Below are positions 517 through 26,864 of a DNA stretch of 27,387 nucleotides, piece after piece (within the stretch, counting starts at the first letter, position 1; every line of letters begins with the position of its first letter). This stretch comes from a virus. Taxonomy: Duplodnaviria > Heunggongvirae > Uroviricota > Caudoviricetes. Position numbers and translations under genes: made by a program. Location: positions 1 through 27,387 of the IMG/VR virus record IMGVR_UViG_3300014890_000018; one strand, written 5' to 3'. A model generated the notes under the pieces. That model was not told the origin of the DNA, made no database searches, and saw nothing but the letters and a program-made list of their open reading frames with translations.

Positions 517-531
517 TGATCAGGAGGAGTC

Positions 532-1071
532 ATGAAGAAAGTTTTTCTTTGCGCCATCTTAGCCTCCTTAAGCTATCCGGCTATCGCCTCATCATTGCAG
601 GATCAACTCTCTGCTGTCGCAGAAGCGGAACAGCAAGGTAAAAATGAAGAGCAAAGGCAGCATGACGAATGGGTCGCGGAGCGCAACAGGGAAATCCAGC
701 AAGAGAAGCAACGTCGCGCAAACGCCCAGGCCGCCGCTAACAAAAGAGCGGCAACGGCAGCGGCAAATAAGAAAGCTCGTCAGGATAAACTGGACGCCGA
801 AGCCTCTGCGGACAAAAAACGCGATCAAAGTTATGAAGATGAGCTACGCAGCTTAGAGATTCAGAAACAAAAACTGGCGCTGGCGAAAGAAGAAGCCCGC
901 GTTAAGCGAGAAAACGAATTTATCGATCAGGAACTGAAGCACAAAGCTGCGCAAACCGATGTGGTGCAATCTGAAGCTGACGCAAACAGGAATATGACTG
1001 AGGGCGGTCGAGATCTGATGAAAAGCGTGGGCAAAGCAGAAGAGAACAAATCGGACAGCTGGTTTAACTAA
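532..1071 (+). CDS. Secreted/periplasmic charged coiled-coil protein, function unknown
   Basis: RBS caggaggag 5-13 nt upstream of ATG; cleavable signal peptide MKKVFLCAILASLSYPAIASS; K/E/A/Q/R-rich low-complexity helical body; 15 bp downstream of the lipoprotein gene, so probably one operon. Confidence 0.55.
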   Translation: MKKVFLCAILASLSYPAIASSLQDQLSAVAEAEQQGKNEEQRQHDEWVAERNREIQQEKQRRANAQAAANKRAATAAANKKARQDKLDAEASADKKRDQSYEDELRSLEIQKQKLALAKEEARVKRENEFIDQELKHKAAQTDVVQSEADANRNMTEGGRDLMKSVGKAEENKSDSWFN

Positions 1072-1110
1072 GCGATGTCAGTAACTTCAAGCCTATGATT
1101 CGTGAGTATA

Positions 1111-1142
1111 AAAAACCCTCTGTAGTAACAGAGGGTTTTGTT
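1111..1142. terminator. Bidirectional rho-independent terminator
   Basis: Stem aaccctctg / cagagggtt (9 bp) with loop tagtaa, A-tract before and T-tract (ttttgtt) after; lies between the convergent plus-strand gene ending at 1071 and the minus-strand spanin gene ending at 1266. Confidence 0.7.
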
Positions 1143-1265
1143 CATTCATAGTGCAGGGTCAAATCATTCCCACTCAATTATTTACGGCATGCATAACCAA
1201 TTGACTGGTAACAACTTTCTGTAACCTGATTTTCACCGTACCGTTTTATATACCGTCACCGGAAA

Positions 1266-1763
1266 TCAGTGCCACGATTTTTGCTTCTTCAGTGAATCGT
1301 ATTGCTGCTCGCAGAATTCCCCCGCGATACGATACTTTTCAGCCTCAGCTGCTGTTGCGTTGTAAACTCGGTTGCTTTCTTCAAGCATGTCGGCGAGCAC
1401 ACCGATGACCTTGCTGGCTGGCGTGCCAGGGGGGAAAGATCCGGTATAGTGTTCGGCGAGCCGCCTGGTTTTGTCAAGCTCGGCGCGCATGCTGTCAGCA
1501 GCGGAATTAGCATACTCAGCATCAGCACGCTCCGCATCGATACGGGATTGTGCTTCACGTTCAATTTGTGTTTTCTCCTGCTCACGCTGTGACCTTAACT
1601 TATCATCAGCCTGTTTCTGATCTTCCTTCGCCTGCGCATACCCGGCATCGTACTGACGGATGCCGTGCACATTCCAGGCAACAACTCCTGATATGACCAG
1701 AACAGCAAGCACCGCCATGATAATCAACTGTTTCCGGTATGCTTTTACGAATGCCCAGATCAT
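1266..1763 (-). CDS. Rz-like inner-membrane spanin (i-spanin)
   Basis: N-terminal transmembrane anchor ([18 protein letters not shown]) followed by a charged coiled-coil periplasmic domain; last gene of the lysis cassette; ATG overlaps the endolysin stop (ATGA). Confidence 0.7.
1289..1537 (-). CDS. Rz1-like outer-membrane lipoprotein spanin (o-spanin), embedded in the +1 frame of the Rz-like gene
   Basis: Alternate-frame ORF wholly inside the Rz-like gene; signal peptide [17 protein letters not shown] with lipobox LTAC; Pro-rich mature part. Start uncertain: ATG at 1537, or ATG at 1522 which has an upstream GGAG. Confidence 0.5.
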   Translation of the reverse strand: MRSVLMLSMLIPLLTACAPSLTKPGGSPNTIPDLSPLARQPARSSVCSPTCLKKATEFTTQQQLRLKSIVSRGNSASSNTIH

Positions 1764-2389
1764 ACCGCCAGCACCTTACTGGCATTGATGTATCGCGCGC
1801 GCCGGTCGTCGATGCCGTTCCGGCCACCATTGATAATCAGAGTTACACGTGCAATATCGCCGGTATACTTCATGCATCCTTTGCTGGCAAAGAACCACGC
1901 CGCGCTACGAGCCGCGTATTCGTCCTGCGCCAGCAGTTCAGGACTCTCCAGCAGGTCAACCTTAAGACCGTTTCCACAGTCACGATAGTTATTCAAACCG
2001 GTAACCTGGATAAGCCCGCGCCCACGGTAGTTCCAGCCATCACCAGGGGCATTGTTCCCCATGCGTTTGCTGTACACCAGATTGGCAATCGCTCTCTGGC
2101 GCTCAAGTGGCAATGGTGGTTCGCCTGCACGTCGCCCCAATGCGTTGGCCTGTCCCTGAGTGAGACGCCCAGCCCGAACAAAGTTAGCCAGTCCGCTGAC
2201 GCTGTAGTTGAAATTCTCCTGCAACCGGGTGAAGCCTCCAGACTCATGCCCGACCTGAGCAATAAACATAGCCTGATCTTCTGGTTTGCTGATACCAAAC
2301 TCTTTCATCGCAGAAGTTATATGCGAGAACCAGCGTGCGGCCAGTGCCTCGCTGATACCAGCAGCTCGCTGGAATTGTTTAATCTCCAT
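1760..2389 (-). CDS. Endolysin, glycoside hydrolase family 19 (chitinase-like lysozyme)
   Basis: GH19 hallmarks read directly from the translation: [12 protein letters not shown] (catalytic Glu region), [32 protein letters not shown] 7 nt upstream of ATG. No N-terminal TM segment, so soluble and holin-dependent. Confidence 0.9.
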
Positions 2390-2687
2390 GTTTAGACCTC
2401 GTTATTTTGAAAATCTGAACGACGTTACCGCGAGTTTTAAGAACCGCAGCAAGCATGACAGCGTTGATAATGACCTCAGATAAATCCACAGCCATTGGCG
2501 TGCGTAACCAGATTGCATAGACGATACGAACAGGAATACTGGCCGCAGCAACAATAAGGAAATAAGCAAGCCACCCTCCCCATCTTCGGTGTTGTGAACC
2601 GTTACGCCGGAATGTGACAACACGAATTGCTATGCCAGTACAAATAAGTGCATTGGTGATAAGCAAAAAATACTCATGCGTTACCAT
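2379..2687 (-). CDS. Holin-like / lysis-regulating membrane protein (102 aa)
   Basis: Small protein with 2-3 hydrophobic helices ([42 protein letters not shown]) and charged C-terminus; directly upstream of the endolysin with overlapping ends; RBS GGGGAG. Confidence 0.6.
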
Positions 2688-3078
2688 CGCCTTTTCTCCC
2701 CGGTATTAACTCGCGTGGATTATCGGAGCGGTGATAGAGCCAGATGCCAATTCGCACTGCGACGATTGCTGACACGAATGCGCCGGCAGAGAAAACAATC
2801 CCTTTCTCGAAGGAATCCTGTGTGATGGTAGGGATCAGGCTGGCTATGCCGATAAGAATTGATGCTGCTGGTTTGTAAAAAAGAAGGCCGCAAAGAAAGC
2901 TGAGCATCGACAGGACTACCCGGCGGCGGATCGGATATTCGACAGCAGAGGTAACAAAAATCACAGCTCCAGCAAGGGAGCCTAAAGCCACCTCAGGAGG
3001 TGCTCCTGCTATAACCGCCGCCAGAGAACTCATGCTAAGCCACTGATTTAAAGACTCATTGGTTATCTGAACTGACAT
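2674..3078 (-). CDS. Holin-like membrane protein (134 aa from ATG at 3078)
   Basis: Multiple predicted TM helices (LSMSSLAAVIAGAPP, LAGAVIFVTSAV, LSMLSFLCGLLFY, ASILIGIASLI, GAFVSAIVAVRIGIWLY); first gene of the lysis cassette. The track start at 3087 is a GTG; ATG at 3078 preferred. Confidence 0.6.
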   Translation of the reverse strand: MSVQITNESLNQWLSMSSLAAVIAGAPPEVALGSLAGAVIFVTSAVEYPIRRRVVLSMLSFLCGLLFYKPAASILIGIASLIPTITQDSFEKGIVFSAGAFVSAIVAVRIGIWLYHRSDNPRELIPGRKGDGNA

Positions 3079-3193
3079 AAAAACCACCGTTTAATGTGCA
3101 TGAAGAACCACCTTAGTATGGGGTTCACCATGCATATTAAACCATATATGAATAGTTATTACCTCTACATCAATTAAATCACTATCATATAAA

Positions 3194-5779
3194 TTACATC
3201 TGGTTATTAATTTTCATTTCAATATTTTTAATGCGCTCAACCAATCCTCGCATAATGAAACGATCAAGTTCTTGATCTCGGAATTGCCACAAATCTCCTG
3301 CTTTCTTAACTAATTTTTTTTCACCAGTACTCACAGGAATAATGAATTTTTCACCATTTTGATCCGTAATTAACTCATCTTTAATGACATCTTCATATAC
3401 ATCATCCCATTTGTCATACCCTATAAATCCATAATCTCGCCAGTCCAGGCCCTCATCCTCTAAAACAGCAATAACTGCCTGAACAGTGGTGCCAGAGTGC
3501 AACCTTTTAGAATCATCATCAATCCATGTCCAGAAACCTAGCAGATCAGCCACTTTAATTGCTGCATTAATTTCAGATTTGGTGAATCCGCGAATCGGGT
3601 CTTTAAGACGCCCATCTGAACTTGACTGGGTTCCTCCGGCAAAATAACCAATGTTATATCGTAGTGATGCGCTACCTATATTTGAAGTGGCATCAGTTCC
3701 AGGAGTTATTCCTCCTGACGTTGCTATTTGCATTGCTGGAGTAGATCCAGACCCACCATGTCTGAACTGTAATTGACCTACACTGTTGTATTGTGTTCTC
3801 ATGAACCAAGATGTAGCATTGCCATTACTGAGCAGGCCAAGAATAGCATCAGAACCAGATGGAGCCGATACAGTGTACATTCCTGTCTTAGTGAGTGACG
3901 TCATGGTTTCTCCATCCTTGCTGACCAATAGTCTGTCGGAGCTTGCATCCATCATCACTTTCCATCCTGTAGACCCATCAGCAGCATTCTTCGTAAACTG
4001 AATTGATGCGTCACCAATATTCCCATCAGAGCCAAGAATTGCAACGGTATAACCGCCTGCTGGGTCTTTACCCACAACTCCAAATCTACCGTTTAGCGGA
4101 TCGCCTGAAACTATTATTTTTACAGGAATCACTCCGGCAAAATTGTCATTAAATATCTGAGAAATATAATTCATGCGCATGCCATAAAAACTAACGCCTC
4201 TCTTTACATTCTCAGAACCAATAAAAGTCGGAATATCTGAATTTGTAATACCATAAGGTGATTGCTCTACCACACCACCATAAAACTGGATGTTGGATGC
4301 GTGATCAAATTCTAATGCATGATTAGCTCTGGTTCTAAACTCACAGCCATAAAAGTAATGCCCATTTATTTCAGCGGATGTCGCATTAACATCACCATCT
4401 ATATAAAGGCATCGCCATGTGTTTGCGCTAGAGTAATAAGAAACAAGCTCTTCATGAGACATTGATGCACGACTGTGGTGATCAAGGGTATAAATACCAC
4501 ATTTATCTACTCTAGTTCCGCTGAGACCATAACTTGCAGGCCCAGTGTTTGAACCAAGAATTGCTAAACCGACTCGCCCCATAGTTGACCCACCAGTAAT
4601 GGTATTGTAATCAGGGTCATCGTTTCCTTGCTTTGACTGAATTATTGTACCTGCTTTTGAAAAGTATCCGAATACACAAACATCCTCCTGAAGATTTCTT
4701 GCAGAGTCATCGTAATAAACCCCACACTCATAATCTGCACGTTGGTCTTCATCAGGTTTTGTGTGATTACCGATGGAATCATAACAAATCATGTCTTGAA
4801 CCACGGCAATGCCTTTAAGGACAGATCCACTTGAACCATATTCTGGAGAAAGAACTCTCACGCAATATCGAACACTTGCGAAATGATCGTCTCTGTTATC
4901 TGTAGTAGCTATCTTTGTTCCTGCTCCAGAAAATATAAACGTAGCACCAGGCATATTTTCTTTTCTACCTTCAGCAAGAAAGAATTTGTCATCATCAGTA
5001 CCAAATCCAAGAACAGGAGAACCATTACCAATGAATCGAAAATCACCAGGTATTTCTATACCATCAGAGAATCGATAAACCCCATCAGGAACAAAAAAAG
5101 TTTTCTTTCCAGATGCAAGCAAAGCCTGCCACTGCGTTAAGTTGTCCGTTTTATAGTCACCTTTTAATCCAAAATCGGTTATGCTGACTGTATCTCGCAT
5201 CTTATCCTGGAACGTTCGATATATCGCACCAGAACCATACTGAATAAACCAACCAAAACCACCAACAACTCCGGCGATTGCAGCATCAACATAATTACGC
5301 ATTGAGCGATTATTTACAGCATCCTGCTCAAGTGATGGATCTGCAAGGTTAGAAATTCTGTTTTGCTTTGCATCGTAATATTTTGCAAGCAAAGATGGTT
5401 TCATCAATGCACGTCTGAACCACCCAAAACATTGCTGGATCAGCATCGTCAGGTAGTCAAAAGCATCTTCATGCACTTCGGGGAAAAATTTTCCCTGATT
5501 GCGAAGGTCTGTCTCCTGCACTACATCAAGCACACGATCTATCGTAATTCGCCATCCAGCAGCAAGCGGCGACGGAAGAACAACAGAACCGCCACTATAA
5601 GTGCCCGCCCCAGTTACCGTATAACCGGTATCCAGAACCAATTCTGTTACGTTCCCGTTCAGGTCAGACACCTGAACAACCAGGTCGGATTTTTTGAAAA
5701 TACGGAAGGTATACGGAAATGATGTCGTAGCGCCGTTACCGGTGTATTCGTTGTGGTCAACTTCGGTTGAGACCGTCAT
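3194..5779 (-). CDS. Tailspike / tail fibre: conserved N-terminal anchor, low-GC central domain (probable glycan depolymerase), C-terminal intramolecular chaperone (peptidase S74-like)
   Basis: 861 aa. N-terminus (MTVSTEVDHNEYTGNGATTSFPYTF...) matches the conserved N-terminal domain of podovirus tail fibres/spikes. C-terminal ~135 aa follow a SSDGRLKD motif, the S-D-x-R-x-K autocleavage signature of S74 chaperone domains. RBS GGAG 7 nt upstream. Strong AT-shift over roughly 3.2-5.5 kb versus the 5' end. Confidence 0.85.
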   Translation of the reverse strand: MTVSTEVDHNEYTGNGATTSFPYTFRIFKKSDLVVQVSDLNGNVTELVLDTGYTVTGAGTYSGGSVVLPSPLAAGWRITIDRVLDVVQETDLRNQGKFFPEVHEDAFDYLTMLIQQCFGWFRRALMKPSLLAKYYDAKQNRISNLADPSLEQDAVNNRSMRNYVDAAIAGVVGGFGWFIQYGSGAIYRTFQDKMRDTVSITDFGLKGDYKTDNLTQWQALLASGKKTFFVPDGVYRFSDGIEIPGDFRFIGNGSPVLGFGTDDDKFFLAEGRKENMPGATFIFSGAGTKIATTDNRDDHFASVRYCVRVLSPEYGSSGSVLKGIAVVQDMICYDSIGNHTKPDEDQRADYECGVYYDDSARNLQEDVCVFGYFSKAGTIIQSKQGNDDPDYNTITGGSTMGRVGLAILGSNTGPASYGLSGTRVDKCGIYTLDHHSRASMSHEELVSYYSSANTWRCLYIDGDVNATSAEINGHYFYGCEFRTRANHALEFDHASNIQFYGGVVEQSPYGITNSDIPTFIGSENVKRGVSFYGMRMNYISQIFNDNFAGVIPVKIIVSGDPLNGRFGVVGKDPAGGYTVAILGSDGNIGDASIQFTKNAADGSTGWKVMMDASSDRLLVSKDGETMTSLTKTGMYTVSAPSGSDAILGLLSNGNATSWFMRTQYNSVGQLQFRHGGSGSTPAMQIATSGGITPGTDATSNIGSASLRYNIGYFAGGTQSSSDGRLKDPIRGFTKSEINAAIKVADLLGFWTWIDDDSKRLHSGTTVQAVIAVLEDEGLDWRDYGFIGYDKWDDVYEDVIKDELITDQNGEKFIIPVSTGEKKLVKKAGDLWQFRDQELDRFIMRGLVERIKNIEMKINNQM

Positions 5780-5832
5780 GTTAAATCTCCAGATAGTCGC
5801 AGCACCCGTTGCGCCGCATATCTGGTTATTCT

Positions 5833-5896
5833 ATTACCTGAAAAACCACATATGGATAGATAACCCATAAATACGAAAAGATATTACCTTTCAGGT
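5833..5896. promoter_or_regulatory. Divergent regulatory region A (between the tailspike and the SOS-regulated ORF) carrying the same two motifs as region B
   Basis: AACCACATATG at 5844-5854 and ATTACCTTTCAGGT at 5883-5896, same order and orientation as in region B (spacing 28 vs 40 bp). Confidence 0.5.
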
Positions 5897-5935
5897 GATT
5901 TGCAAAACGTGCTGGATAGCAAACAAATTATTTGA

Positions 5936-5955
5936 TACTGTATATTTATACAGTT
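5936..5955 (+). promoter_or_regulatory. LexA (SOS) box, 18/20 match to consensus
   Basis: TACTGTATATTTATACAGTT versus consensus TACTGTATATATATACAGTA; CTGT-N8-ACAG core intact; lies 20 bp upstream of the ATG at 5975, in the divergent region between the tailspike and the small plus-strand ORF. Confidence 0.75.
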
Positions 5956-5974: not shown

Positions 5975-6232
5975 ATGCAGCAGTATCACTATCCACTGGA
6001 AGACGGATTTACCGAAAGGATTCACACGCCGGGAGGCGTCAGGTCACTGGTGGAGGGATCGCACTTGATGAAATTACTCCGGGATCTCGATAAGGATGGA
6101 TTTAATGTCGATGGCCCACTTGCCGAACTGACTGCACTGATTAACTACGTCACCAGCTCACAGATGTCTATGCAGGATCTGCAAACACATCTCGACTATT
6201 GTGCCGAACAATTACGAAAGCAAACCACATAA
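5975..6232 (+). CDS. SOS-regulated small protein (85 aa), function unknown; candidate antirepressor or SOS-induced accessory protein
   Basis: ATG at 5975 with GGAG 8 nt upstream (the track start at 5957 is a TTG); LexA box just upstream; opposite orientation to all flanking structural genes. No motif I recognise. Confidence 0.55.
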   Translation: MQQYHYPLEDGFTERIHTPGGVRSLVEGSHLMKLLRDLDKDGFNVDGPLAELTALINYVTSSQMSMQDLQTHLDYCAEQLRKQTT

Positions 6233-6254
6233 AGAAAAGGCCGCGAAAGCGGCC
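6231..6254 (-). terminator. Rho-independent terminator for the minus-strand secreted-protein gene; hairpin also abuts the stop codon of the plus-strand small ORF
   Basis: Perfect stem ggccgc / gcggcc with GNRA-type loop gaaa at 6239-6254; on the minus strand it is followed by TTTTCTTT (6238-6231). On the plus strand no U-tract follows. Confidence 0.65.
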
Positions 6255-6255
6255 T

Positions 6256-6267
6256 GTGACATGTCAC
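6256..6267. repeat. 12-bp perfect palindrome GTGACATGTCAC, copy 1 of 3
   Basis: Exact string; identical copies at 23979-23990 and 26244-26255; each sits beside an intrinsic-terminator hairpin at a junction between gene modules. Confidence 0.8.
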
Positions 6268-19001: not shown

Positions 19002-19994
19002 TTACACCACGCGGGCTTCTGTTTCCAGAAGCGCATCAGTTTCACGGATTGGTACACCACGGAATGAAGTCCACCACTCGCCTTCTGTCTCTTTTACGCT
19101 GATCGCCAGAGATGTTTTCTCCAGAGATTGCAGATCAAGAGCCTGGCCTACAGTGCGGTTCATGTAGAACACCGGGCGACCCATGCCACGGTTTGGAATG
19201 CGATGCAGTGCTTTAACCATCAACTTCGCAATATTTGCGGCAGAGGAAGGTTCTGAAAGATTGCTGACATCGATGTTTGCAATGCGAACAACATAACGCC
19301 AGTCACGCAGAGCAAGTCCGTTGTCCCATTTGTAATGGGTACGGTAGCCTTCGTACTTGCCGCCATTAGCATCTTCCAGTGTCACCTGGCCTTTATCTTC
19401 CATCTGGATGCCAGCCTTCTGCCCTTTCGGGAAGATGCCATGCACGGTGTTTTCGCCCCACACCACTAACCAGATTGAGGTGTTATCTGTACCCGTGCCA
19501 CCAGCATCAATGATGTTCTGAGCATTACCCGCAGACAGGCTGGAATAGCGGGAGGACAGTCCCATAAACTGCTGAGGGTTAACGCTGGAATCACCATAAA
19601 ACAACGTCTGCGCCATCTGCTGATTCATCGCTTCAATAAATGCGCGGTCTTCAGACAGGCGGAATTCGGCGGTATTACCGTTCAGATCAGCCAGTGACTT
19701 ATCGACTTCAGCATAGGTTTCCAGCATTCCAACGTAATCGGTGACCTGCACTGTGGTTGATTTGCTTGGCTGTACGCCATAGTTCAGCAAACGCCAGGTG
19801 GCTGAAGGTAAACCAGAACGAATGGTGGTTCGGTGTCCGGTAGGAAGGTTCCCTTCGACAAAAGGCATATCCTGAAGGATCGGGTTAGTTTGACCGAGAA
19901 GCTCGATAATCTTATCGACTTTCCCGTTTGGATCGACGCGCTTACCCCAGTCAGCCAGCGTTAGCGCAGTTAAGCCTTTAACAGCCATTGTCAT
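19002..19994 (-). CDS. Major capsid protein (330 aa)
   Basis: Directly downstream of the scaffold gene; strong RBS GAGAGGAA; size typical of HK97-fold podovirus coat proteins; followed by a hairpin. Confidence 0.8.
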   Translation of the reverse strand: MTMAVKGLTALTLADWGKRVDPNGKVDKIIELLGQTNPILQDMPFVEGNLPTGHRTTIRSGLPSATWRLLNYGVQPSKSTTVQVTDYVGMLETYAEVDKSLADLNGNTAEFRLSEDRAFIEAMNQQMAQTLFYGDSSVNPQQFMGLSSRYSSLSAGNAQNIIDAGGTGTDNTSIWLVVWGENTVHGIFPKGQKAGIQMEDKGQVTLEDANGGKYEGYRTHYKWDNGLALRDWRYVVRIANIDVSNLSEPSSAANIAKLMVKALHRIPNRGMGRPVFYMNRTVGQALDLQSLEKTSLAISVKETEGEWWTSFRGVPIRETDALLETEARVV

Positions 19995-20704: not shown

Positions 20705-20997
20705 TCCTGTTCACTGGCCTCTTTGGCCATCTTCAAATACTGTTCAGGGCAATGCGCCATAACGCGCTGAAACAGTTCCAGCGCCAGATTGCGTTGCCCC
20801 TCATTAAATGCCATTGCCATAGCGTCCATCGGTGAGATAGCGGAAAACACACGGCCTTTCTCCAGCACCGACCAGACAACGCGACGCCCCTGTTCACTGC
20901 TCATGACAAAGCGAATGTCATCAATTTCACGCTGTGCCATGTCACGTTGCTTACGGGCGTTTTCTTCTTTCATTTGATCGTCTTCGTAATCTGTCAT
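20701..20997 (-). CDS. Hypothetical small protein between portal and scaffold (98 aa)
   Basis: Translationally coupled at both ends (overlaps the portal stop and the scaffold start); acidic. Confidence 0.5.
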   Translation of the reverse strand: MTDYEDDQMKEENARKQRDMAQREIDDIRFVMSSEQGRRVVWSVLEKGRVFSAISPMDAMAMAFNEGQRNLALELFQRVMAHCPEQYLKMAKEASEQE

Positions 20998-22673
20998 TGT
21001 GATTGCCCACCCTGACCACTAACTGCATTCGCCATAGCTGACAAAACACTCGGATCCGAAGTTTTAGCTTCGCTTAGCGTCTTGGCACCCTGTGCCGCCG
21101 CCATCCCCATCGCCATCATTTGTTGCTGCTGTTGTTGCTGTGCCCGTTGCTGGCGAGCCTGCTCAACCTGTTCCTGCGGAACAATGACGGTTGGAGACAC
21201 TCCGGACATATCAGCGAATGCATCGATCGCCTGATCAACGTTGAGTTTGTCGAGAGCTTCTGGTTTCGCTTGCGCAAGTTGACCAATGAAGTTAACCGTG
21301 GACGCCAGACTGGACAGGCCGATAGACTTCTGCGCCTGAGCCATGACGGAAATGTATTCGACCTTCAGGGGCATGCCTTCCATCGCGTCAGGCGGTGGCG
21401 GCAGCATGTTTTTACGCACCATCATCGAGAAAGCGCGGTCAATGAGAGGATTAAGACATTCGTCGTTCAGACGCTCCAGAACCGGCCCCAACATCAGAAG
21501 TTTTTCTTCTTTCATTTCGATCACTGCTTCAACAGGCATCGAGCGGGTATTGATGTTGTGCAACATCATGAACAGATCGACAAAGTAGGCGCTGTTAATG
21601 ATTTGGCGAGTGTCCTGAATGTCTGCTACCAGATCTGCTGTACTGGGGTTAACCAGATAAGCAGGCCTGAAACCATCCTGACCAGTAATCTGATCGATAT
21701 ACGTGATGTCGCCAGGAAGAAGGGATGCGCGCTGATTCTTGAGGGAAGTCGGAGCAACCATCGGCGGATTGGTGGCTTTATCAATCAACTGCGACTTACG
21801 CTTCTGGAGAAGCTGCAATGCCTTAACAGGTCCAAGCGCCAGCATACCCGGGCATGATGATCCATAAACATCTTCGCCGTTAACTTCCCAGCGCGGAGCC
21901 ATAATTGGAAACTCATCGAATCCGGACTCACGCAACAACTTGTCGTTATCGCCGCCAACCTCGTAATAAACCGATTTGAATGGCTTGTTCTTGCTATCCA
22001 GCTTCGATGTATCGCGGTCAATGTTCGGGTAAACCGAATGCATCACTTCAATCCACTTCTCGTAGGTGCCGCTTTCCCACATGCTTTTTACGGATTCGCT
22101 GACGTTATTTAGCCCGAACTCCTGAACAAGCTGACGAACAGTCATAGAGAACTTGCGAAAACAGGTGTCCACACTGCCACGAGGTGAGTTAGCCAGGTAG
22201 TAACTGCCTATAGGGAATGGCATTGTGCGAATGATGTCCTCGTCATCATCCAGCACCGCCATTGCACCAGTGCTGTATGTGCCGAGGCTTCCGTATAACT
22301 GCGGCAGCGACTGATAGAGATTCGACTTATTGAACATATCGTTCATGCGGTTCTGCACCGCCTCAAGCCACAACTTAACAGGGCCATAATCCATCATTTC
22401 AGGATCTGGCGTAGCCAGGCGAAACCACGGACGCGCGGGGCTTGTGATGCCTGACATCATGCCGCTGGCGAGAGTGCGCGCCGCCATAGTCCCGGTCGAA
22501 TCAATAATGCGTGTATTGCGTCGATCGTTACGGTTGACCTCAGAAGTCAGAAAGCGGGAACCACGCGGGTTGATGTAATCACTCAACTCGCGCCAGTGCG
22601 GCTCGAACGACTGACGCTCGCTTTCAAGTTGTGCGAACTGTTTGTTCAATCGCTCTTTAGTTGTTTCCGCCAT
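20994..22673 (-). CDS. Portal (head-to-tail connector) protein, T7-type (559 aa)
   Basis: Size and position downstream of the terminase genes; Gln-rich C-terminal tail (QQRAQQQQQQQMMAMGMAAAQ); RBS GGAG 8 nt upstream. Confidence 0.85.
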   Translation of the reverse strand: MAETTKERLNKQFAQLESERQSFEPHWRELSDYINPRGSRFLTSEVNRNDRRNTRIIDSTGTMAARTLASGMMSGITSPARPWFRLATPDPEMMDYGPVKLWLEAVQNRMNDMFNKSNLYQSLPQLYGSLGTYSTGAMAVLDDDEDIIRTMPFPIGSYYLANSPRGSVDTCFRKFSMTVRQLVQEFGLNNVSESVKSMWESGTYEKWIEVMHSVYPNIDRDTSKLDSKNKPFKSVYYEVGGDNDKLLRESGFDEFPIMAPRWEVNGEDVYGSSCPGMLALGPVKALQLLQKRKSQLIDKATNPPMVAPTSLKNQRASLLPGDITYIDQITGQDGFRPAYLVNPSTADLVADIQDTRQIINSAYFVDLFMMLHNINTRSMPVEAVIEMKEEKLLMLGPVLERLNDECLNPLIDRAFSMMVRKNMLPPPPDAMEGMPLKVEYISVMAQAQKSIGLSSLASTVNFIGQLAQAKPEALDKLNVDQAIDAFADMSGVSPTVIVPQEQVEQARQQRAQQQQQQQMMAMGMAAAQGAKTLSEAKTSDPSVLSAMANAVSGQGGQSQ

Positions 22674-22687
22674 TTCAATGACTCCGG

Positions 22688-22894
22688 TTACTGACCAAGT
22701 AGCGTTTTACCGCTGGTATTAGCGGTTGATGTGTCGCCCTGAGAACCGGTAAGCAGCGTAGAACTACGACCAGCAGCAGCGCGACGACGACGTGTTTCTT
22801 CGTCGCGGGCATCAACAACGGCGGCATCCTGCTCCTGTGGTGCTGCCTGAACTTCTGGTGTTGCAGGCACTGATGGTGAGCTACCCATGCACAT
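22688..22894 (-). CDS. Possible small ORF upstream of portal (68 aa), low-complexity
   Basis: ATG preceded by the same 11-nt translation-initiation sequence as the portal gene (GGAGTCATTGA + 1 nt + ATG); its stop overlaps the portal RBS. Protein is low-complexity, so coding status is uncertain. Confidence 0.35.
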   Translation of the reverse strand: MCMGSSPSVPATPEVQAAPQEQDAAVVDARDEETRRRRAAAGRSSTLLTGSQGDTSTANTSGKTLLGQ

Positions 22895-22922
22895 ATCAAT
22901 GACTCCGTACGCAATTAAATTA

Positions 22923-22998
22923 TTACCAATTTAACCACATATGATTTATTTATCGTAGATAGTTGACATTTAACGCACAAATTATTACCTTTCAGGTA
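22923..22998. promoter_or_regulatory. Divergent regulatory region B (between the portal unit and the tRNA cassette) carrying the shared motifs AACCACATATG and ATTACCTTTCAGGT
   Basis: AACCACATATG at 22934-22944; ATTACCTTTCAGGT at 22985-22998 containing the inverted repeat TACCT-TTC-AGGTA; TTGACA at 22964-22969 on the plus strand; minus strand reads TTGTGC-N17-TACGAT (promoter-like). Confidence 0.5.
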
Positions 22999-23049
22999 AG
23001 CAAAGAGTTCATTCCGGTTATTAACCTGACTGGCTTGTCGTTAAATTGA

Positions 23050-23321: not shown

Positions 23322-23398
23322 GTGGCATTAGCTCAGCTGGACAGAGCAACCGCCTTCTAAGCGGTTGGTCGCAGGTTCGAATCCTGCATGCCACGCCA
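23322..23398 (+). tRNA. tRNA-Arg (anticodon UCU, reads AGA), phage-encoded
   Basis: 77-nt cloverleaf read by hand: acceptor GTGGCAT/ATGCCAC, D-stem GCTC/GAGC, anticodon stem ACCGC/GCGGT with loop CTTCTAA (anticodon TCT), T-stem GCAGG/CCTGC with loop TTCGAAT, discriminator G, encoded CCA. Resembles the enterobacterial argU tRNA but differs in the stems. Confidence 0.9.
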
Positions 23399-23441
23399 GA
23401 ATCACGCCTAAGGACCGTGATGCCAGAAGTTCCAGGGGCTT

Positions 23442-23483
23442 GGCGGTGATGGTTTCCCTTGAAGGACTATCACCGCCCTTTTT
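23442..23483 (+). terminator. Rho-independent terminator after the tRNA
   Basis: 9-bp stem ggcggtgat / atcaccgcc with an 18-nt loop, followed by cTTTTT. Confidence 0.5.
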
Positions 23484-23561
23484 ACAGCAGGACGCCATTG
23501 CGATGACTTCATGCTGTAAACCAGTACAGCCACGGAAGGCATAACTCATTGCTTCCAGTTC

Positions 23562-23584
23562 GCCCGGTTCGCCGGGCATTTTTT
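23562..23584 (+). terminator. Strong rho-independent terminator (UUCG tetraloop) immediately upstream of the 125-aa ORF
   Basis: Stem gcccgg / ccgggc, loop ttcg, then aTTTTTT; only 12 nt before the ATG at 23597. Confidence 0.65.
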
Positions 23585-23978: not shown

Positions 23979-23990
23979 GTGACATGTCAC
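23979..23990. repeat. 12-bp perfect palindrome GTGACATGTCAC, copy 2 of 3
   Basis: Exact string 5 nt after the stop of the 125-aa ORF and 4 nt before a terminator hairpin; between the convergent 125-aa ORF and TerL. Confidence 0.8.
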
Positions 23991-24064: not shown

Positions 24065-25540
24065 TTAAGCATAAGGGTCATAATCCGTTATGGCCCTTCC
24101 CTGCTGGCTTTGCTGTCCTGGTATATTTATGCGTTTCGAGACCGGGAAAGCAAACGTCAGCAGTAGCGCATCGCCTTTACCCGGAGAACGCCCAAGCCGC
24201 TCCTTGATATCTTCCTTCGGTTCGATAACGACTTTACCGTCCACTCGAACTTTGTACTCTGCCGCCGACAGGTCGTCTGCAGTTTCCTGGTCATCCAGCA
24301 TGCCGCCGAGCCTCAGCCATGTCTTGCATGAGTTGAACATCTCCCCACGCTTGTTAAGCATCTGCGGGTCAGTGGACGCACCGCCGAACGGAACAAGTTG
24401 CCATGTACGTCCCCAGCCATCACCGATTGACTTCAAACCGGTTCCGTAACCGAAGTCGATGAACACTGCGTCAGCCTGGTACTGGTCTTCAAAGTCAGCG
24501 ATACGCTTCGCCATAATCAGATCGTCAGTGGTCTTGTTGCCAGTCCATAGCACCTTACTGTGCAGCCCCTGCCGCAGGTATATCACAGCGTCATCAACGC
24601 CGGAGTATGCCGGGTCAACGCCGATTATCACCGGAGCATGTGCAACCTGCGCAGCGGTTACCACCCGTTTCATTGCCTCGTCAGTAAGGCCGGTAGGGAT
24701 AAACTGTAATTCAGATGCATCAGGGAATATGCCGCGCACACGGATTTTAACGAAGTCGCTGTCTTCCCCGTAGTCATCAACCCATTTCTGCAACTGCTGT
24801 TTGTTAGTGCCTTCCACCGTCCGGCTGTCAATCTGCGCAGTTTTCCAGCGGTGTTTATATTTGCGGAAACATTCGCGGAAACGCCCGGTGTTACGTGTAG
24901 GGTTTCCGAACGCCACCCAGATAATCTCAGTGTCTTCGTCCGTAAGCGCACCCTCAGCAACTTCCCACACCAGATCCGCAATGTTCGACGCTTCATCGAA
25001 TACCACGATGATGCGTTTGCGCTCGTTGTGTAGTCCGGCGAATGCCTCAGTGTTGTGCTCAGACCAGGGTATTGCGTCAGCTCGCCACCGCTTGTCGTGC
25101 CCAGGGTCATTGCTGTACATCGCGGTAGCGGTACAGGTAAACCAGTCTTTCGTGATAGCAAGGTTCGACCACTTGATAATTTCCGGCCAGGTCTTCGTTC
25201 GTAGCTGGTTGTCGGTGTTGGCGGTCACCACGACCTTACAATCCTCGCAAGTGGACATGCCCCAGTTGATCAGCATTGAGATGAATGCGGATTTACCAAT
25301 ACCGTGACCAGAAGCACGTGCCAGCATAAGCGGCTGATATCGCGTCTCTGGATTCTGCAGGTGATCACGTATCTCTCGGAACGCATCGGCCTGCCACTGA
25401 CGTGGACCGGTGGCATGTGCCAGTTCAGTACCCTCTTCCCCCCACGGGAACGCATAGAGGGCATAGCCAAGCGGATCGTGAGTGAACCCTGCAATATCCT
25501 CGATTAACTGCTCTTCAGGAGATAACGCTGTATCTGTCAC
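24065..25540 (-). CDS. Terminase large subunit (491 aa)
   Basis: Walker A-type motif ARASGHGIGKSAF near the N-terminus, acidic nuclease-type C-terminal half, ATGA-type overlap with the TerS stop. Confidence 0.9.
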   Translation of the reverse strand: MTDTALSPEEQLIEDIAGFTHDPLGYALYAFPWGEEGTELAHATGPRQWQADAFREIRDHLQNPETRYQPLMLARASGHGIGKSAFISMLINWGMSTCEDCKVVVTANTDNQLRTKTWPEIIKWSNLAITKDWFTCTATAMYSNDPGHDKRWRADAIPWSEHNTEAFAGLHNERKRIIVVFDEASNIADLVWEVAEGALTDEDTEIIWVAFGNPTRNTGRFRECFRKYKHRWKTAQIDSRTVEGTNKQQLQKWVDDYGEDSDFVKIRVRGIFPDASELQFIPTGLTDEAMKRVVTAAQVAHAPVIIGVDPAYSGVDDAVIYLRQGLHSKVLWTGNKTTDDLIMAKRIADFEDQYQADAVFIDFGYGTGLKSIGDGWGRTWQLVPFGGASTDPQMLNKRGEMFNSCKTWLRLGGMLDDQETADDLSAAEYKVRVDGKVVIEPKEDIKERLGRSPGKGDALLLTFAFPVSKRINIPGQQSQQGRAITDYDPYA

Positions 25541-26133
25541 TGATTGCCATCCTGACGTTCTTTCAGTCTCTTCCTGGCTGCCGCTATGCGATCAGCAATT
25601 GTCACATTCACATTAACATCCAGGCGTTCTTTGAATGCGTTGACGTCGACGTGCTTACCAATCAGTTCGAGGTTCTTCACCTTGTCAGGCCATTTAATTT
25701 TTTTGAGGATTGTCTCTATCGAATCCTCGTTCATGTTCATGATGGTCGATGACAGATCAAAGCCACTAAGCGTAGTGCGCCAGATTTTCGGCCACTCGCG
25801 GATTGGCTTAAGGCTCCCATCGTCGTTGAGGATGTCGATCACGTCCATCTGGTCGATCTCCACCAGGCGCATGAGAACGTAATCAGCACTGACGCGCATT
25901 CGTTTGTTGCGCTCCTCCATCAACTCGGCAATCCGTTTTTGAATGCGTTCATCGCGCATCATGACACTGGCTTTAACTGCCGCTGTATTTGGGGAGAATC
26001 CTGCGTTAATCGCTGCCTGAGTCTGGTTTTCAGGCGTTTTGATGTATGACTGGCAATAAGCCTCCTGCATTGCTGTTAGTGGCTTAAATTGCGTTGATTT
26101 GCGTTTATAGGTTTTAGGTTCAGCAGGCATCAT
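25537..26133 (-). CDS. Terminase small subunit (about 198 aa from ATG at 26133)
   Basis: N-terminal helix-turn-helix segment AMQEAYCQSYIKTPENQTQAAINAGFSPNTAAVKASVMM is typical of small-terminase DNA-binding domains; directly upstream of and overlapping TerL. The track start at 26211 is a TTG inside the upstream terminator/repeat region; ATG at 26133 (or 26130) preferred. Confidence 0.8.
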   Translation of the reverse strand: MMPAEPKTYKRKSTQFKPLTAMQEAYCQSYIKTPENQTQAAINAGFSPNTAAVKASVMMRDERIQKRIAELMEERNKRMRVSADYVLMRLVEIDQMDVIDILNDDGSLKPIREWPKIWRTTLSGFDLSSTIMNMNEDSIETILKKIKWPDKVKNLELIGKHVDVNAFKERLDVNVNVTIADRIAAARKRLKERQDGNQ

Positions 26134-26140
26134 AACCACC

Positions 26141-26169
26141 GTGGTAATAGTTACCGTTGTGGTAATAGT
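26141..26169. repeat. Two direct repeats of GTGGTAATAGT, 18 bp apart, just upstream of the TerS start
   Basis: Exact 11-mers at 26141-26151 and 26159-26169, between a minus-strand terminator and the TerS ATG. Confidence 0.7.
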
Positions 26170-26175
26170 ACCATG

Positions 26176-26202
26176 CAAAATAAAGCCGCCATAGTTGGCG
26201 GC
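26176..26202 (-). terminator. Rho-independent terminator on the minus strand, upstream of the terminase genes
   Basis: Perfect 7-bp stem gccgcca / tggcggc with 4-nt loop at 26185-26202, followed on the minus strand by TTTATTTTG. Confidence 0.6.
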
Positions 26203-26243
26203 AGTATTCAAAACACATCAAATTCATCATGCATAATATACTC

Positions 26244-26255
26244 GTGACATGTCAC
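26244..26255. repeat. 12-bp perfect palindrome GTGACATGTCAC, copy 3 of 3
   Basis: Exact string overlapping the stop codon of the 112-aa gene and about 40 bp from the terminator hairpin upstream of TerS. Confidence 0.8.
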
Positions 26256-26590
26256 ACTATTAATTTCGTTTCATGCCAGCCTTTAGTCACCCAGCATTGC
26301 GAGTCACCATTACACGGGCATGAATTAACTGGCACTCTCTCGCCGCACTTACCGCAACGTTTTCTGCTGATCGATTTTATACGCCCGCGCACGCGTGCAT
26401 CATCCTGGCGGATCAGTAACGCTATATACTCACCAAATTCGTAAGGCGCACGCCCGGGGCGACGCGCGGCACAGTTACGCTCCAGCATTTCAATTTCCTG
26501 AGCATCAAGCACAATCTCCAGTTTACGCACACCAGATGCAGCTTGTCTGGCTCTCTGAGCGGCTTTGCGCTCTGCTGCTGATTTAGCCAT
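26252..26590 (-). CDS. Hypothetical small protein with C-terminal Cys-rich (zinc-ribbon-like) motif, 112 aa
   Basis: ATG at 26590 (the track start at 26593 is a TTG); basic N-terminal helical region; C-terminal CGKCGERVPVNSCPCNGDSQC cluster; overlaps the upstream ASCH-like gene. Confidence 0.5.
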   Translation of the reverse strand: MAKSAAERKAAQRARQAASGVRKLEIVLDAQEIEMLERNCAARRPGRAPYEFGEYIALLIRQDDARVRGRIKSISRKRCGKCGERVPVNSCPCNGDSQCWVTKGWHETKLIV

Positions 26591-26864
26591 CAATATTTAC
26601 CTTTATCGCGAACACCTTTACCGGTTTATCTCCGAAGTGCGGATGTGTGATTGTCTTGATTTCATATCCGTCATACGGGACGTCAATTCTGCGGCTGGAA
26701 TCGTCGCGCTTCGGATATCCCTTTGTGATAATCAGGCGGTCATGCTTACGGTTAACGAGGCGCTTTTTCCAGTAGTCATTAACAAGGCGATACTCTTCCG
26801 TTTTCTCTCCGCGAATCATGGCATCGAAGTATTCACCTTTGACGGCAAGTTGCAGGTTAGCCAC
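26583..26864 (-). CDS. ASCH-domain-like protein (93 aa from GTG at 26864)
   Basis: Contains GEKTEEYR, matching the GxKxxExR signature of ASCH domains; the track start at 26948 is a TTG far upstream; the GTG at 26864 has RBS AAGGGG 6 nt upstream. Confidence 0.5.
   Translation of the reverse strand: MANLQLAVKGEYFDAMIRGEKTEEYRLVNDYWKKRLVNRKHDRLIITKGYPKRDDSSRRIDVPYDGYEIKTITHPHFGDKPVKVFAIKVNIDG

What the first reader, a model, noticed from the sequence alone, without database searches (positions are those of the whole stretch)
22923..22998. Regulatory module duplicated upstream of the portal unit and the tailspike
Both divergent intergenic regions carry AACCACATATG followed 28-40 bp later by ATTACCTTTCAGGT, in the same order and orientation (5844-5854 and 5883-5896; 22934-22944 and 22985-22998). 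The second motif contains the inverted repeat TACCT-N3-AGGTA, which from memory is the same class as the ACCT-N(2-4)-AGGT palindromes bound by the HTH antitoxin MqsA. A terminator after the secreted-protein gene (6231-6254) would cut the tailspike off from the upstream late transcript, so a duplicated promoter/operator for the tailspike is a coherent explanation. Which protein binds it is unknown.
Basis: partly seen in the sequence, partly recalled or inferred. Interest (0 to 1): 0.55.

Follow-up and report, generated by a model that had tools for sequence, protein, structure and literature searches.

The report
Prophage repressor operators at late-gene starts
The repeated motif pair is real, but it is mostly ordinary: it is a copy of the binding site for this epsilon15-like prophage's own lysogeny repressor, plus a second conserved box, and such pairs sit at the start of each late gene block.

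Summary
The second copy lies 1 bp left of the stated coordinates. Both motifs are far above chance.

The window is an epsilon15/phiV10-like (Uetakevirus) prophage of E. coli inserted at guaA.

**Motif 2** is the palindrome (A)TTACC-N5-GGTAA(T), here called the O-box.
- The epsilon15 GenBank record already marks it as a "repressor" binding site at the same two places.
- There are 8-11 perfect copies per roughly 40 kb genome, against 0.04 expected.
- The copies cluster on both sides of the repressor gene.
- The likely binder is therefore the phage's Rep protein (SPC32H Rep family, PDB 5D50), not MqsA. The ACCT/AGGT bases that MqsA needs are not conserved at the same sites in related phages.

**Motif 1** is part of a separate 14-bp imperfect palindrome, AWCCATATRTGGTT, here called the P-box.
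- In these two copies it is followed by a lone GGTAAT half-site.
- A third copy precedes the lysis genes.
- Its binder is unknown.

- The portal-side O-box covers the -10 of a strong promoter that points away from the portal, towards tRNA-Arg.
- The "secreted protein" gene is the LexA-controlled antirepressor Ant.

Whether the modules act as late promoters is not settled. A lambda-Q-like layout upstream of the small terminase gene (terS) offers a rival route for late transcription.

Interest is low to moderate.

The parts
22984..23000 (.). O-box upstream of gp3/portal: ATTACCTTTCAGGTAAG, with a perfect TTACC-N5-GGTAA core
   Evidence: locate it. It is orthologous to the epsilon15 protein_bind feature 'repressor' at 2931-2947. 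The core is invariant in 76-77 of 77 IMG/VR relatives.
5883..5899 (.). O-box between the tailspike gene and ant: ATTACCTTTCAGGTGAT, with one half-site changed to GGTGA/TCACC
   Evidence: locate it. It is orthologous to the epsilon15 'repressor' feature at 19895-19911. It is conserved in 8 genomes and in 57 distinct relatives.
22933..22946 (.). P-box on the portal side: AACCACATATGATT, an imperfect form of the 14-bp palindrome AACCATATATGGTT.
   Evidence: The block CATATGTGGTTAAATTGGTAAT is nearly invariant in 77 relatives.
5844..5857 (.). P-box on the tailspike side: AACCACATATGGAT
22922..22927 (.). Isolated O-box half-site ATTACC (GGTAAT in the late direction), 5 nt from the P-box. Its notional centre is 62 bp from the O-box centre, the same spacing as canonical O-box pairs.
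   Evidence: The 62-bp operator pairs appear.
5833..5838 (.). Isolated O-box half-site ATTACC (GGTAAT in the late direction), 5 nt from the P-box and 50 bp from the O-box centre. It abuts the predicted -10 TAGAAT of the tailspike promoter, sharing one base with it.
3140..3164 (.). Third, degenerate module upstream of the lysis cassette: P-box AACCATATATGAAT (3140-3153) plus half-site ATTACCT (3158-3164). Relatives carry a full O-box 53 bp away.
22963..22991 (+). Sigma-70 promoter TTGACA-17-TACCTT, reading away from the portal towards tRNA-Arg. Its -10 and start site lie inside the O-box.
   Evidence: This is the highest PWM score in the region (10.5-11.9) and it is position-conserved in 6 genomes. 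TTGACA is invariant in 77 relatives. The function is inferred.
23322..23398 (+). tRNA-Arg (UCU), downstream of that promoter
   Evidence: ARAGORN; Rfam RF00005 at 71.7 bits.
5913..5953 (+). Predicted ant promoter TGGATA-17-TACTGT, with the LexA box CTGTATATTTATACAG (5938-5953) over its -10
   Evidence: The elements are conserved in all relatives. LexA control of ant in SPC32H is recalled from Kim & Ryu 2013; that paper is not held in the library.
5975..6232 (+). ant, a small antirepressor of 85 aa
   Evidence: E=1.3e-47 to PDB 5D50 chain E, 'Anti-repressor protein'. It occupies the same position as SPC32H ant.
5828..5856 (-). Candidate tailspike promoter TCCATA-17-TAGAAT (TTCATA-17-TAGAAT in the Salmonella and Klebsiella phages). 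The P-box overlaps its -35 and spacer.
   Evidence: PWM score is 6.5 in phiV10, which has the same TCCATA-17-TAGAAT; in the window itself TTGCAA-16-TATCTT scored higher (8.9). The score is 10.3 in epsilon15, SPC32H and Kp4865 at the same aligned position. This is inference only.
22928..22956 (-). Weak candidate gp3/portal promoter ACGATA-17-TAAATT
   Evidence: PWM score 5.6-7.3. Weak and inferred.
6238..6255 (-). Intrinsic terminator ending the upstream late genes, with its T-run in the late direction
   Evidence: epsilon15 and phiV10 annotate the equivalent terminator.
26132..26166 (.). Two tandem O-boxes immediately before the ATG of the small terminase gene (terS)
3194..5779 (-). Tailspike gene
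   Evidence: Pfam pectate-lyase-like domain plus Peptidase_S74. The N-terminus is shared with relatives.
20994..22894 (-). gp3 (22688-22894) and the portal gene (20994-22673)
   Evidence: Pfam Head-tail_con, E=6.7e-187; phrog_831 for gp3.

Best explanation
**What the elements are.** Both sites are operators (O-boxes) of the prophage's own lysogeny repressor Rep. Rep is a two-domain XRE-type helix-turn-helix protein of the SPC32H/epsilon15 Rep family. Its gene lies about 9 kb beyond the right end of the window.

The O-boxes belong to a dispersed set of about 10-18 operators per prophage:
- classical pairs at the early promoters, with the proximal site over -10/+1 and the distal site 62 bp upstream;
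- two sites at the small terminase gene (terS);
- one at each point where the late genes resume after an opposite-strand accessory cassette, that is gp3/portal, tailspike and lysis genes.

**How it most likely works (inferred).**
- In the lysogen, Rep occupies these sites and keeps the divergent promoter regions quiet.
- At the portal site the O-box covers the -10 and start of a strong promoter that drives the tRNA-Arg cassette.
- At both sites a lone GGTAAT half-site next to the P-box lies over the weak late-direction core promoter. A Rep tetramer also holding the full O-box 50-62 bp away could occupy it.
- After DNA damage, LexA cleavage releases ant, which sits next to the tailspike O-box. 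Ant then strips Rep, and all O-box promoters open together.

**Motif 1.** It is a separate conserved element, the P-box (AWCCATATRTGGTT), which always sits inside or against a core promoter. It probably binds a second phage regulator, either the Cro-like gp39 or a late factor. That protein is not identified.
For: **Already annotated**
- The epsilon15 GenBank record marks this palindrome as protein_bind 'repressor' at 7 places. These include the sites upstream of gp3 and of the tailspike, and three next to the repressor gene.

**Far above chance**
- There are 8-11 perfect TTACC-N5-GGTAA sites per genome against 0.04 expected.

**Sites bracket rep with repression geometry**
- In phiV10 the early-left promoter (PL) reads TTGACA-17-AATTAT, with one O-box over -10/+1 and a second 62 bp upstream.
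- The same 62-bp pairs recur in all genomes.

**The repressor is present and conserved where it matters**
- A 99.5-99.97% identical E. coli prophage carries Rep that is 193/194 identical to phiV10 Rep, flanked by O-boxes.
- phiV10 Rep matches SPC32H Rep (PDB 5D50_A) at E=4e-42.
- Rep proteins are only about 42% identical overall, but they keep the NLVNRW stretch. By its position in the N-terminal HTH domain I take this to be the recognition helix; that assignment was not tested. They also keep the same half-site.

**Ant and LexA**
- Ant is identified.
- The LexA box and ant promoter are conserved next to the O-box.

**Promoter overlap at the portal site**
- The promoter TTGACA-17-TACCTT over the O-box is conserved in 6 genomes.

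**Experimental hint**
- Rep overexpression in phage ZX5 cut holin and endolysin mRNA by more than 99.9% (PMC9782041).

**P-box**
- It occurs at every late restart and at early promoters, with the O-to-P distance fixed at each site across 8 genomes.
Against: **No direct binding evidence.** I could not read any binding experiment. The SPC32H papers and the epsilon15 genome paper are not held in the library. The epsilon15 'repressor' features are predictions.

**Awkward geometry.** With my promoter predictions, the full O-box centres sit near -70 of the late-direction start sites and near -57 of the ant promoter. These are not classical repression positions.

**Weak late-direction promoters.** The late-direction sigma-70 promoters score poorly at gp3 (5.6-7.3) and at the E. 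coli tailspike.

**Conflict with the conversion genes.** In relatives, the O-box before the lysis cassette lies in the spacer and -10 of the best promoter for the lysogenic-conversion genes. Those genes must be expressed in lysogens.

**No covariation test possible.** Every Rep and Cro-like homologue in the phage collection sits in the same phage group and has the same boxes.
Confidence: 0.65

Rival explanations
1. The modules are not late-gene promoters. Late genes would be read from a single promoter downstream of the gp49-like regulator gene, which is followed by a terminator and then the small terminase gene (terS). This resembles the lambda Q / PR' / tR' arrangement. An antiterminator would carry RNA polymerase through the terminators after terL and after the tail genes. 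Under this view the O/P modules mainly control the opposite-strand accessory cassettes (tRNA-Arg, ant, conversion genes) or act as Rep roadblocks.
For: - In the late direction, upstream of terS, the sequence TTAATA-17-TATATT carries the palindrome GTGACATGTCAC in its spacer. A terminator hairpin follows about 45 nt later, and then terS.
- The same palindrome sits beside the terminators after terL and after the last tail gene in every genome.
- The palindrome travels with the gp49-family gene into the unrelated phage ZF40, which has no O-boxes or P-boxes.
- gp49 matches phrog_536, 'transcriptional regulator'.
- The only strong promoter at the portal module points away from the portal.
Against: - No homology to known Q proteins was found, and the structure model was too poor to test the fold.
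- There is no clear -10-like pause element after the putative promoter; this was checked by eye.
- P-box plus -10-like elements are conserved on the late-gene side of all three junctions. Good late-direction promoters exist at the lysis cassette (12.4 in phiV10) and at the tailspike in the Salmonella and Klebsiella phages (10.3).
Confidence: 0.3
2. The palindrome is bound mainly by another protein with the same specificity, for example the Cro-like gp39 during lytic growth, rather than by Rep. Alternatively both bind it, as with lambda CI and Cro.
For: - The Cro-like gene is present in every genome that has O-boxes. It is better conserved than Rep: 76% identity between the E. coli and Salmonella phages, against 42% for Rep.
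- The O-box sits over promoters of genes that should be on in lysogens.
Against: - The geometry at the early promoters is that of a lysogeny repressor.
- Rep keeps an invariant NLVNRW stretch in its N-terminal HTH domain.
- The epsilon15 annotators assigned the sites to the repressor.
Confidence: 0.12
3. The host antitoxin MqsA, or an MqsA-like HTH protein, binds the ACCT-N3-AGGT palindromes.
For: Both window sites contain ACCT-TTC-AGGT. This fits the loose ACCT-N(2-4)-AGGT form. The published motif is AACCT-N3-AGGTT (PMC4894380 abstract).
Against: - The outer bases differ: TACCT/AGGTA here, against AACCT/AGGTT.
- The T and A next to ACC/GGT are present in only 47% of family sites.
- Those bases are lost at the orthologous sites in Tyrion and the Klebsiella phages, while TTACC/GGTAA stays invariant.
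- The motif's distribution follows the phage immunity region, not a toxin-antitoxin locus.
Confidence: 0.03
4. The matches are chance or are relics of an old duplication with no function.
For: The sequence between the two motifs is unrelated in the two copies.
Against: - Exact 11-mer and 14-mer repeats are far above shuffle expectation.
- The motifs are conserved across four host genera while the flanks diverge.
Confidence: 0.02

Closest known systems
epsilon15 / SPC32H (Uetakevirus) Rep-operator-Ant-LexA lysis-lysogeny switch
   Same: - The palindrome is the same, and it sits at orthologous positions that epsilon15 annotates as repressor sites.
- A 99.5%+ identical prophage carries a Rep homologue (5D50_A family).
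- Ant is about 85% identical to the solved SPC32H Ant.
- The LexA box lies over the ant promoter.
   Different: - This is an E. coli prophage with phiV10-type Rep, which is 42% identical to the Salmonella Rep.
- One half-site at the tailspike copy reads TCACC.
- The O-box before the lysis genes is degenerate here because the serotype-conversion cassette is absent.
- The companion P-box is not annotated in any record I saw.
Dispersed-operator repressor regulons: phage P1 C1 and mycobacteriophage L5 gp71 stoperators (from general knowledge)
   Same: One repressor has many sites scattered over the genome, including in or next to late and structural operons, rather than a single immunity region.
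   Different: - The sites here are symmetric palindromes, whereas the P1 and L5 sites are asymmetric.
- They sit at operon heads and not inside transcribed intergenic gaps in one orientation.
- There is no evidence that they block elongation.
MqsA palindrome AACCT-N3-AGGTT
   Same: Both are short palindromes of the ACC-N5-GGT type read by an XRE-type HTH dimer. The two window copies literally contain ACCT-N3-AGGT.
   Different: - The conserved outer bases differ.
- The MqsA-specific bases are not conserved in orthologues.
- No toxin-antitoxin genes lie at either site.
Lambda CI cooperative and looped operators (from general knowledge)
   Same: Strong and weak sites are separated by a whole number of helical turns (62 bp pairs). 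Rep is described as a tetramer with four DNA-binding domains (summary of the PNAS 2016 work in PMC9638917).
   Different: At the late modules the partner of the full O-box is only a half-site. The spacing there is 50-62 bp, not the adjacent or 2.4-kb spacings of lambda.

Membership tests
Uetakevirus Rep operator (O-box) | Palindrome (A)TTACC-N5-GGTAA(T) with an A/T-rich spacer | tested here: met
   22985-22999 matches 10/10 core bases and 5884-5898 matches 9/10. The logo was built from 58 perfect sites.
Uetakevirus Rep operator (O-box) | Orthologous to sites annotated as repressor-binding in a reference genome | tested here: met
   epsilon15 protein_bind 'repressor' features at 2931-2947 and 19895-19911 align with the two window sites.
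Uetakevirus Rep operator (O-box) | The same motif brackets the repressor gene of the same element, in promoter-overlapping positions | tested here: met
   This cannot be tested in the window because rep lies outside it. It is met in the 99.5-99.97% identical prophage L172 (O-boxes at 34962, 35010, 35722, 35784 around rep at 35080-35664) and in phiV10.
Uetakevirus Rep operator (O-box) | Cognate Rep protein of the SPC32H family is present | tested here: met
   The L172 Rep is 193/194 identical to phiV10 Rep. phiV10 Rep matches 5D50_A at E=4e-42.
Uetakevirus Rep operator (O-box) | Rep physically binds the site and represses transcription | not testable with these tools
   The primary papers are not held. 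The only indirect evidence is that Rep overexpression lowers lysis-gene mRNA (PMC9782041).
MqsA-type operator | AACCT-N3-AGGTT palindrome (PMC4894380) | tested here: not met
   The window sites read TACCT-TTC-AGGTA and TACCT-TTC-AGGTG. Only the inner ACCT..AGGT matches.
MqsA-type operator | The MqsA-contacted bases are the conserved ones at orthologous sites | tested here: not met
   Positions +/-2 are T/A in only 47% of sites. Orthologues read ACCTCAAGGGT, ACCAAAAAGGT, ACCTTATCGGT and ACCTTAATGGT.
SPC32H-type Ant antirepression module | A small Ant protein homologous to SPC32H Ant, encoded next to the tailspike gene | tested here: met
   Window 5975-6232 matches 5D50_E at E=1.3e-47. Its position matches SPC32H_020.
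SPC32H-type Ant antirepression module | LexA box overlapping the ant promoter | tested here: met
   CTGTATATTTATACAG lies at 5938-5953 over the predicted -10 TACTGT. It is conserved in relatives. LexA binding itself was not tested.
Sigma-70 promoter for the late units | Recognisable -35 and -10 in the late direction at a conserved position | tested here: inconclusive
   The tailspike candidate TyCATA-17-TAGAAT scores 6.5-10.3. The gp3 candidate ACGAyA-17-TAAATT scores only 5.6-7.3. The strongest promoter at the gp3 module is on the opposite strand.

The most novel reading that the evidence does not exclude
Uetakevirus genomes may use a fixed three-box punctuation.
- Every transcription restart would carry a Rep operator plus a P-box (AWCCATATRTGGTT) at a site-specific, helically phased distance. 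A second regulator that nobody has identified would read the P-box.
- Every segment end would carry the palindrome GTGACATGTCAC next to a terminator. The gp49-family RHH/zinc-finger-like protein would read this palindrome and act as a new kind of late antiterminator or activator, and it would be portable to unrelated phages such as ZF40.
Probability: 0.25. Interest if true: 0.55.

Novelty: new member of a known kind. Interest (0 to 1): 0.3.

Why it matters
This shows how an epsilon15/phiV10-type prophage can silence its structural, tailspike and lysis genes directly through many copies of one operator, and release them together through the LexA-Ant-Rep relay.

These phages are used as reporter and typing phages for E. 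coli O157 and Salmonella. Knowing which promoters are Rep-controlled, and in which direction they fire, helps in engineering them.

The un-annotated P-box, and the terminator-side palindrome linked to the gp49-family gene, are cheap and testable leads to the still unknown control of late genes in this genus.

Tried and rejected
- The Kim & Ryu 2013 and Kim et al. 2016 SPC32H papers and the Kropinski 2007 epsilon15 paper are not held in the library.
- Searches for SPC32H, epsilon15 and phiV10 found no paper that gives operator sequences.

**Covariation test for the binder**
- All 48 IMG/VR loci that reach rep have phiV10-type Rep.
- All Rep and Cro-like homologues in the phage collection are in Uetakevirus-like phages with the same boxes. 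The more distant genus member Kp4865-1 also has them.
- No heteroimmune relative exists to test against.
- phiSG1 was fetched but is a composite element, so it was not used.

**RNA-level explanations**
- Rfam finds only the tRNA.
- The leader plus tRNA region folds well (z = -4.1), but that region includes the tRNA itself.

**gp49-like protein**
- Pfam, NCBIfam and PDB sequence searches were uninformative.
- The AlphaFold model had pLDDT 64, so no fold search was run.

**Resemblances of motif 1 considered by eye and dropped**
- DnaA box: TTAACCACA matches 8/9 at the portal copy only, and this is not conserved.
- IHF, CRP and sigma-54 patterns: none fit across copies.
- An extended -10 (TGn): fits the gp3 and lysis copies but not the tailspike copy.

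**Other ideas dropped**
- A symmetric bidirectional promoter centred on the P-box fits only the lysis module.
- The full O-box centres fall at -70/-71 of three predicted late start sites. I treat this as weak evidence because I chose among several candidate -10 boxes.

Full report
**1. What the window is**

The window is about 98% identical to Escherichia phage phiV10 and its relatives (genus Uetakevirus, the epsilon15-like podoviruses). It lies in reverse orientation relative to those records.

It is an integrated prophage.
- The att core ATTGAGTGGGAATGATT is at 1162-1178. Phage ZX5 uses this core at the 3' end of guaA (PMC9782041).
- A prophage in E. coli JNE25-003 is 99.5-99.97% identical to the window over most of its length. 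It sits between yfgH/yfgI and guaA.

The gene layout was checked by Pfam and PHROGs.
- Lysis genes: about 1266-3087 (-)
- Tailspike: 3194-5779 (-)
- Tail and head genes
- Portal: 20994-22673 (-)
- gp3: 22688-22894 (-)
- tRNA-Arg(UCU): 23322-23398 (+)
- A gp66-like gene (+)
- terL: 24065-25540 (-), then terS
- A gp49-like regulator gene: 26252-26593 (-)

**2. The observation**

They are far above chance.
- The 11-mer is expected 0.01 times.
- The 14-mer, allowing 2 mismatches, is expected 0.11 times.

The similarity extends further than described.
- The palindrome is ATTACCT-N3-AGGTRAK.
- Motif 1 is preceded at a fixed 5-nt gap by ATTACC in both copies.

The DNA between the two motifs (25 and 37 nt) is unrelated in the two copies. 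These are two instances of a shared grammar, not a duplicated segment.

A third, degenerate instance lies upstream of the lysis cassette at 3140-3164.

**3. Motif 2 is the phage repressor's operator (O-box)**

*It is already annotated.* The epsilon15 GenBank record AY150271.2 marks ATTACCTAAAAGGTAAT upstream of gp3 and ATTACCTGTAAGGTAAT upstream of the tailspike as protein_bind "repressor; lysogeny". It marks five further copies the same way. Three of them lie next to the repressor gene.

*It is a genome-wide family.* I counted sites in six complete genomes.
- Each has 8-11 perfect TTACC-N5-GGTAA sites per roughly 40 kb, against 0.04 expected.
- The logo is (A)TTACC-W5-GGTAA(T).

*The sites bracket rep with classical repression geometry.*
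- In phiV10 the early-left promoter reads TTGACA-17-AATTAT. One O-box lies over its -10 and start site, and a second lies 62 bp upstream.
- The promoter before the DUF1064 gene has the same 62-bp pair, with the proximal site at +1.
- Pairs 62-63 bp apart recur in all genomes.

*The repressor is present and conserved where it matters.*
- The near-identical JNE25-003 prophage encodes a Rep that is 193/194 identical to phiV10 Rep, flanked by O-boxes.
- phiV10 Rep is a full-length homologue of SPC32H Rep (5D50_A, E=4e-42).
- Rep proteins of the E. coli, Salmonella, Enterobacter and Klebsiella phages are only about 42-78% identical. They keep the NLVNRW stretch, and all use the same half-site. I take NLVNRW to be the recognition helix from its place in the N-terminal HTH domain. 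That assignment was not tested.

*What is missing.* I could not read any direct binding experiment, so "Rep binds here" remains a strong inference and is not shown.

**4. Why MqsA is not the answer**

The published MqsA motif is AACCT-N3-AGGTT (PMC4894380). The window sites read TACCT-TTC-AGGTA and TACCT-TTC-AGGTG.

Across the family, the bases next to ACC and GGT are T and A in only 47% of sites. The orthologous sites in Tyrion and the Klebsiella phages lose ACCT/AGGT but keep TTACC/GGTAA.

In 77 close relatives of the portal site, TTACC and GGTAAT are almost invariant, with a single change in one locus. The spacer and the T after ACC vary.

**5. Motif 1 is a separate element (P-box)**

Read in the late-gene direction, motif 1 is CATATRNGGTT. 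This is the better-conserved right part of a 14-bp palindrome, AWCCATATRTGGTT. The palindrome is perfect (AACCATATATGGTT) at the lysis module of phiV10 and Tyrion.

P-boxes with 2 or fewer mismatches lie almost only next to O-boxes. They are found:
- at gp3, the tailspike and the lysis cassette;
- after the Cro-like gene;
- between the 62-bp operator pair before the gp43-like gene;
- in the spacer of the early-left promoter.

The distance from the O-box to the element differs between sites: 62, 50, 53 and 29 bp to the notional half-site centre. At each site it is identical across eight genomes, even where the DNA in between has diverged.

In the gp3 and tailspike modules, GGTAAT follows 5 nt after the P-box (TGTAT in the lysis module). 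GGTAAT is one O-box half-site. At the portal site its notional centre is 62 bp from the full O-box, the same as in canonical pairs.

The right half of the P-box is much better conserved than the left. A simple symmetric dimer site is therefore not certain.

The binder is unknown. The Cro-like gp39 and Rep occur only in the same phages, so co-occurrence cannot separate the candidates.

**6. Promoters**

I ran a position-weight scan with my own approximate sigma-70 matrices.

*Portal module.* The best and only position-conserved strong promoter is on the window + strand, TTGACA-17-TACCTT (score 10.5-11.9).
- Its -10 and start site lie inside the O-box.
- It points away from the portal, towards tRNA-Arg.
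- TTGACA is invariant in 77 relatives.
- The late-direction candidate ACGAyA-17-TAAATT is weak.

*Tailspike module.*
- On the + strand, TGGATA-17-TACTGT is conserved. Its -10 lies under the LexA box CTGTATATTTATACAG (5938-5953). This is the ant promoter.
- The downstream 85-aa protein is Ant (E=1.3e-47 to 5D50_E), not a secreted protein.
- In the late direction, TyCATA-17-TAGAAT is conserved. It scores 10.3 in the Salmonella and Klebsiella phages and 6.5 in phiV10, which carries the same sequence as the window. The P-box lies over its -35 and spacer, and the half-site abuts its -10.

*Lysis module.* phiV10 has TTAACC-17-TATAAT (score 12.4) around the P-box.

*O-box position.* With these assignments, the full O-box centres fall at -71, -70 and -70 of the predicted late start sites and at about -57 of the ant promoter. 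This regularity is suggestive, but I picked among several candidate -10 boxes. These are also not classical repression positions. Repression of the late promoters would have to work through the proximal half-site with help from the distal O-box. Rep is described as a tetramer (PMC9638917, summarising the 2016 work), which would allow this.

**7. Points that do not fit neatly**

In relatives, the O-box before the lysis cassette lies in the spacer and -10 of the best promoter for the opposite-strand serotype-conversion genes. Those genes must be active in lysogens. Either that promoter call is wrong, repression is partial, or the O-box is not purely a Rep "off" site.

**8. A rival route for late transcription**

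The perfect palindrome GTGACATGTCAC occurs at three conserved places in every genome. In the window these are 6256, 23979 and 26244.
- One copy lies directly after the gp49-like gene. It sits inside TTAATA-17-TATATT and is followed about 45 nt later by a terminator and then terS.
- The other two lie against the terminators after terL and after the last tail gene.

The unrelated myovirus ZF40 has a 68% identical gp49 homologue followed 3 nt later by the same palindrome. ZF40 has no O-boxes or P-boxes. This palindrome therefore goes with the gp49 family (phrog_536, "transcriptional regulator").

The layout resembles lambda Q / PR' / tR'. If gp49 is an antiterminator, the terminator at 6238-6255 would not isolate the tailspike, and the modules would not need to be restart promoters. 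I give this rival about 0.3.

**9. Verdict**

The finding is real and conserved, but its main component is an already annotated, well-understood kind of element: dispersed operators of a temperate phage's repressor, here in an E. coli member of the epsilon15 group.

The MqsA analogy is superficial. The binder can be named with reasonable confidence.

The P-box, and the palindrome linked to the gp49-family gene, are the parts that may be new.

Noticed in passing
window 6256-6267, 23979-23990, 26244-26255: The perfect 12-bp palindrome GTGACATGTCAC lies next to terminators at three conserved junctions in every Uetakevirus genome. It also directly follows the gp49-family gene in the unrelated phage ZF40 (L091 position 14944). 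It resembles the matS site GTGACRNYGTCAC but is one base shorter in the centre; the matS sequence is from memory. It may be the binding site of the gp49-like regulator.
   Followed up: partly
window 26252-26593 (-): The gp49-like protein is the last gene before the late region and matches phrog_536, 'transcriptional regulator'. By eye its N-terminus looks ribbon-helix-helix-like, and its C-terminus is cysteine-rich (CGKCG..CPCNGDSQC). It is a candidate late regulator. The AlphaFold model was too weak (pLDDT 64) for a fold search.
   Followed up: partly
window 26195-26260 (late direction): Reading in the late direction, the promoter-like TTAATA-17-TATATT carries the palindrome in its spacer. 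The terminator hairpin gccgccaactatggcggc follows, then two O-boxes that abut the terS ATG. This is a lambda PR'-tR'-like layout.
   Followed up: partly
A near-consensus LexA box precedes it.
   Followed up: yes
window 1-1178: This is the prophage-host junction. The att core is at 1162-1178, a bidirectional terminator is at about 1113-1140, and the host genes yfgH and yfgI lie at 1-1071. The prophage sits at the 3' end of guaA.
   Followed up: yes
window 3088-3193: The tailspike stop and the lysis cassette are only 106 bp apart. The serotype-conversion genes that relatives carry here (oac, gtr-like) are absent, and the O-box is degenerate at what looks like the recombination joint.
   Followed up: partly
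window 6255/6256 compared with L172 6308-9605: The closest E. coli prophage (JNE25-003) has an extra 3.3-kb cassette between ant and the 186-aa gene. RefSeq annotates two YafO-family toxins and a Bro-type 'antirepressor' in it. The cassette has its own O-boxes and a P-box and is absent from the window.
   Followed up: no
window 23514-23529: A second CTGT-N8-ACAG match (CTGTAAACCAGTACAG) lies upstream of the gp66-like gene. Its centre is not AT-rich, so it is a doubtful LexA box.
   Followed up: no
window 23328-23579 (-): The ORF annotated in phiV10 as p04 overlaps tRNA-Arg on the opposite strand and is probably not a gene.
   Followed up: no
L004 35131-35152, L003 35968-35990, window 26132-26148: Several O-boxes end 1-2 nt before a start codon, so their right half (GAGGTAAA, GGTGGTTAT) also serves as the ribosome-binding site.
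   Followed up: no
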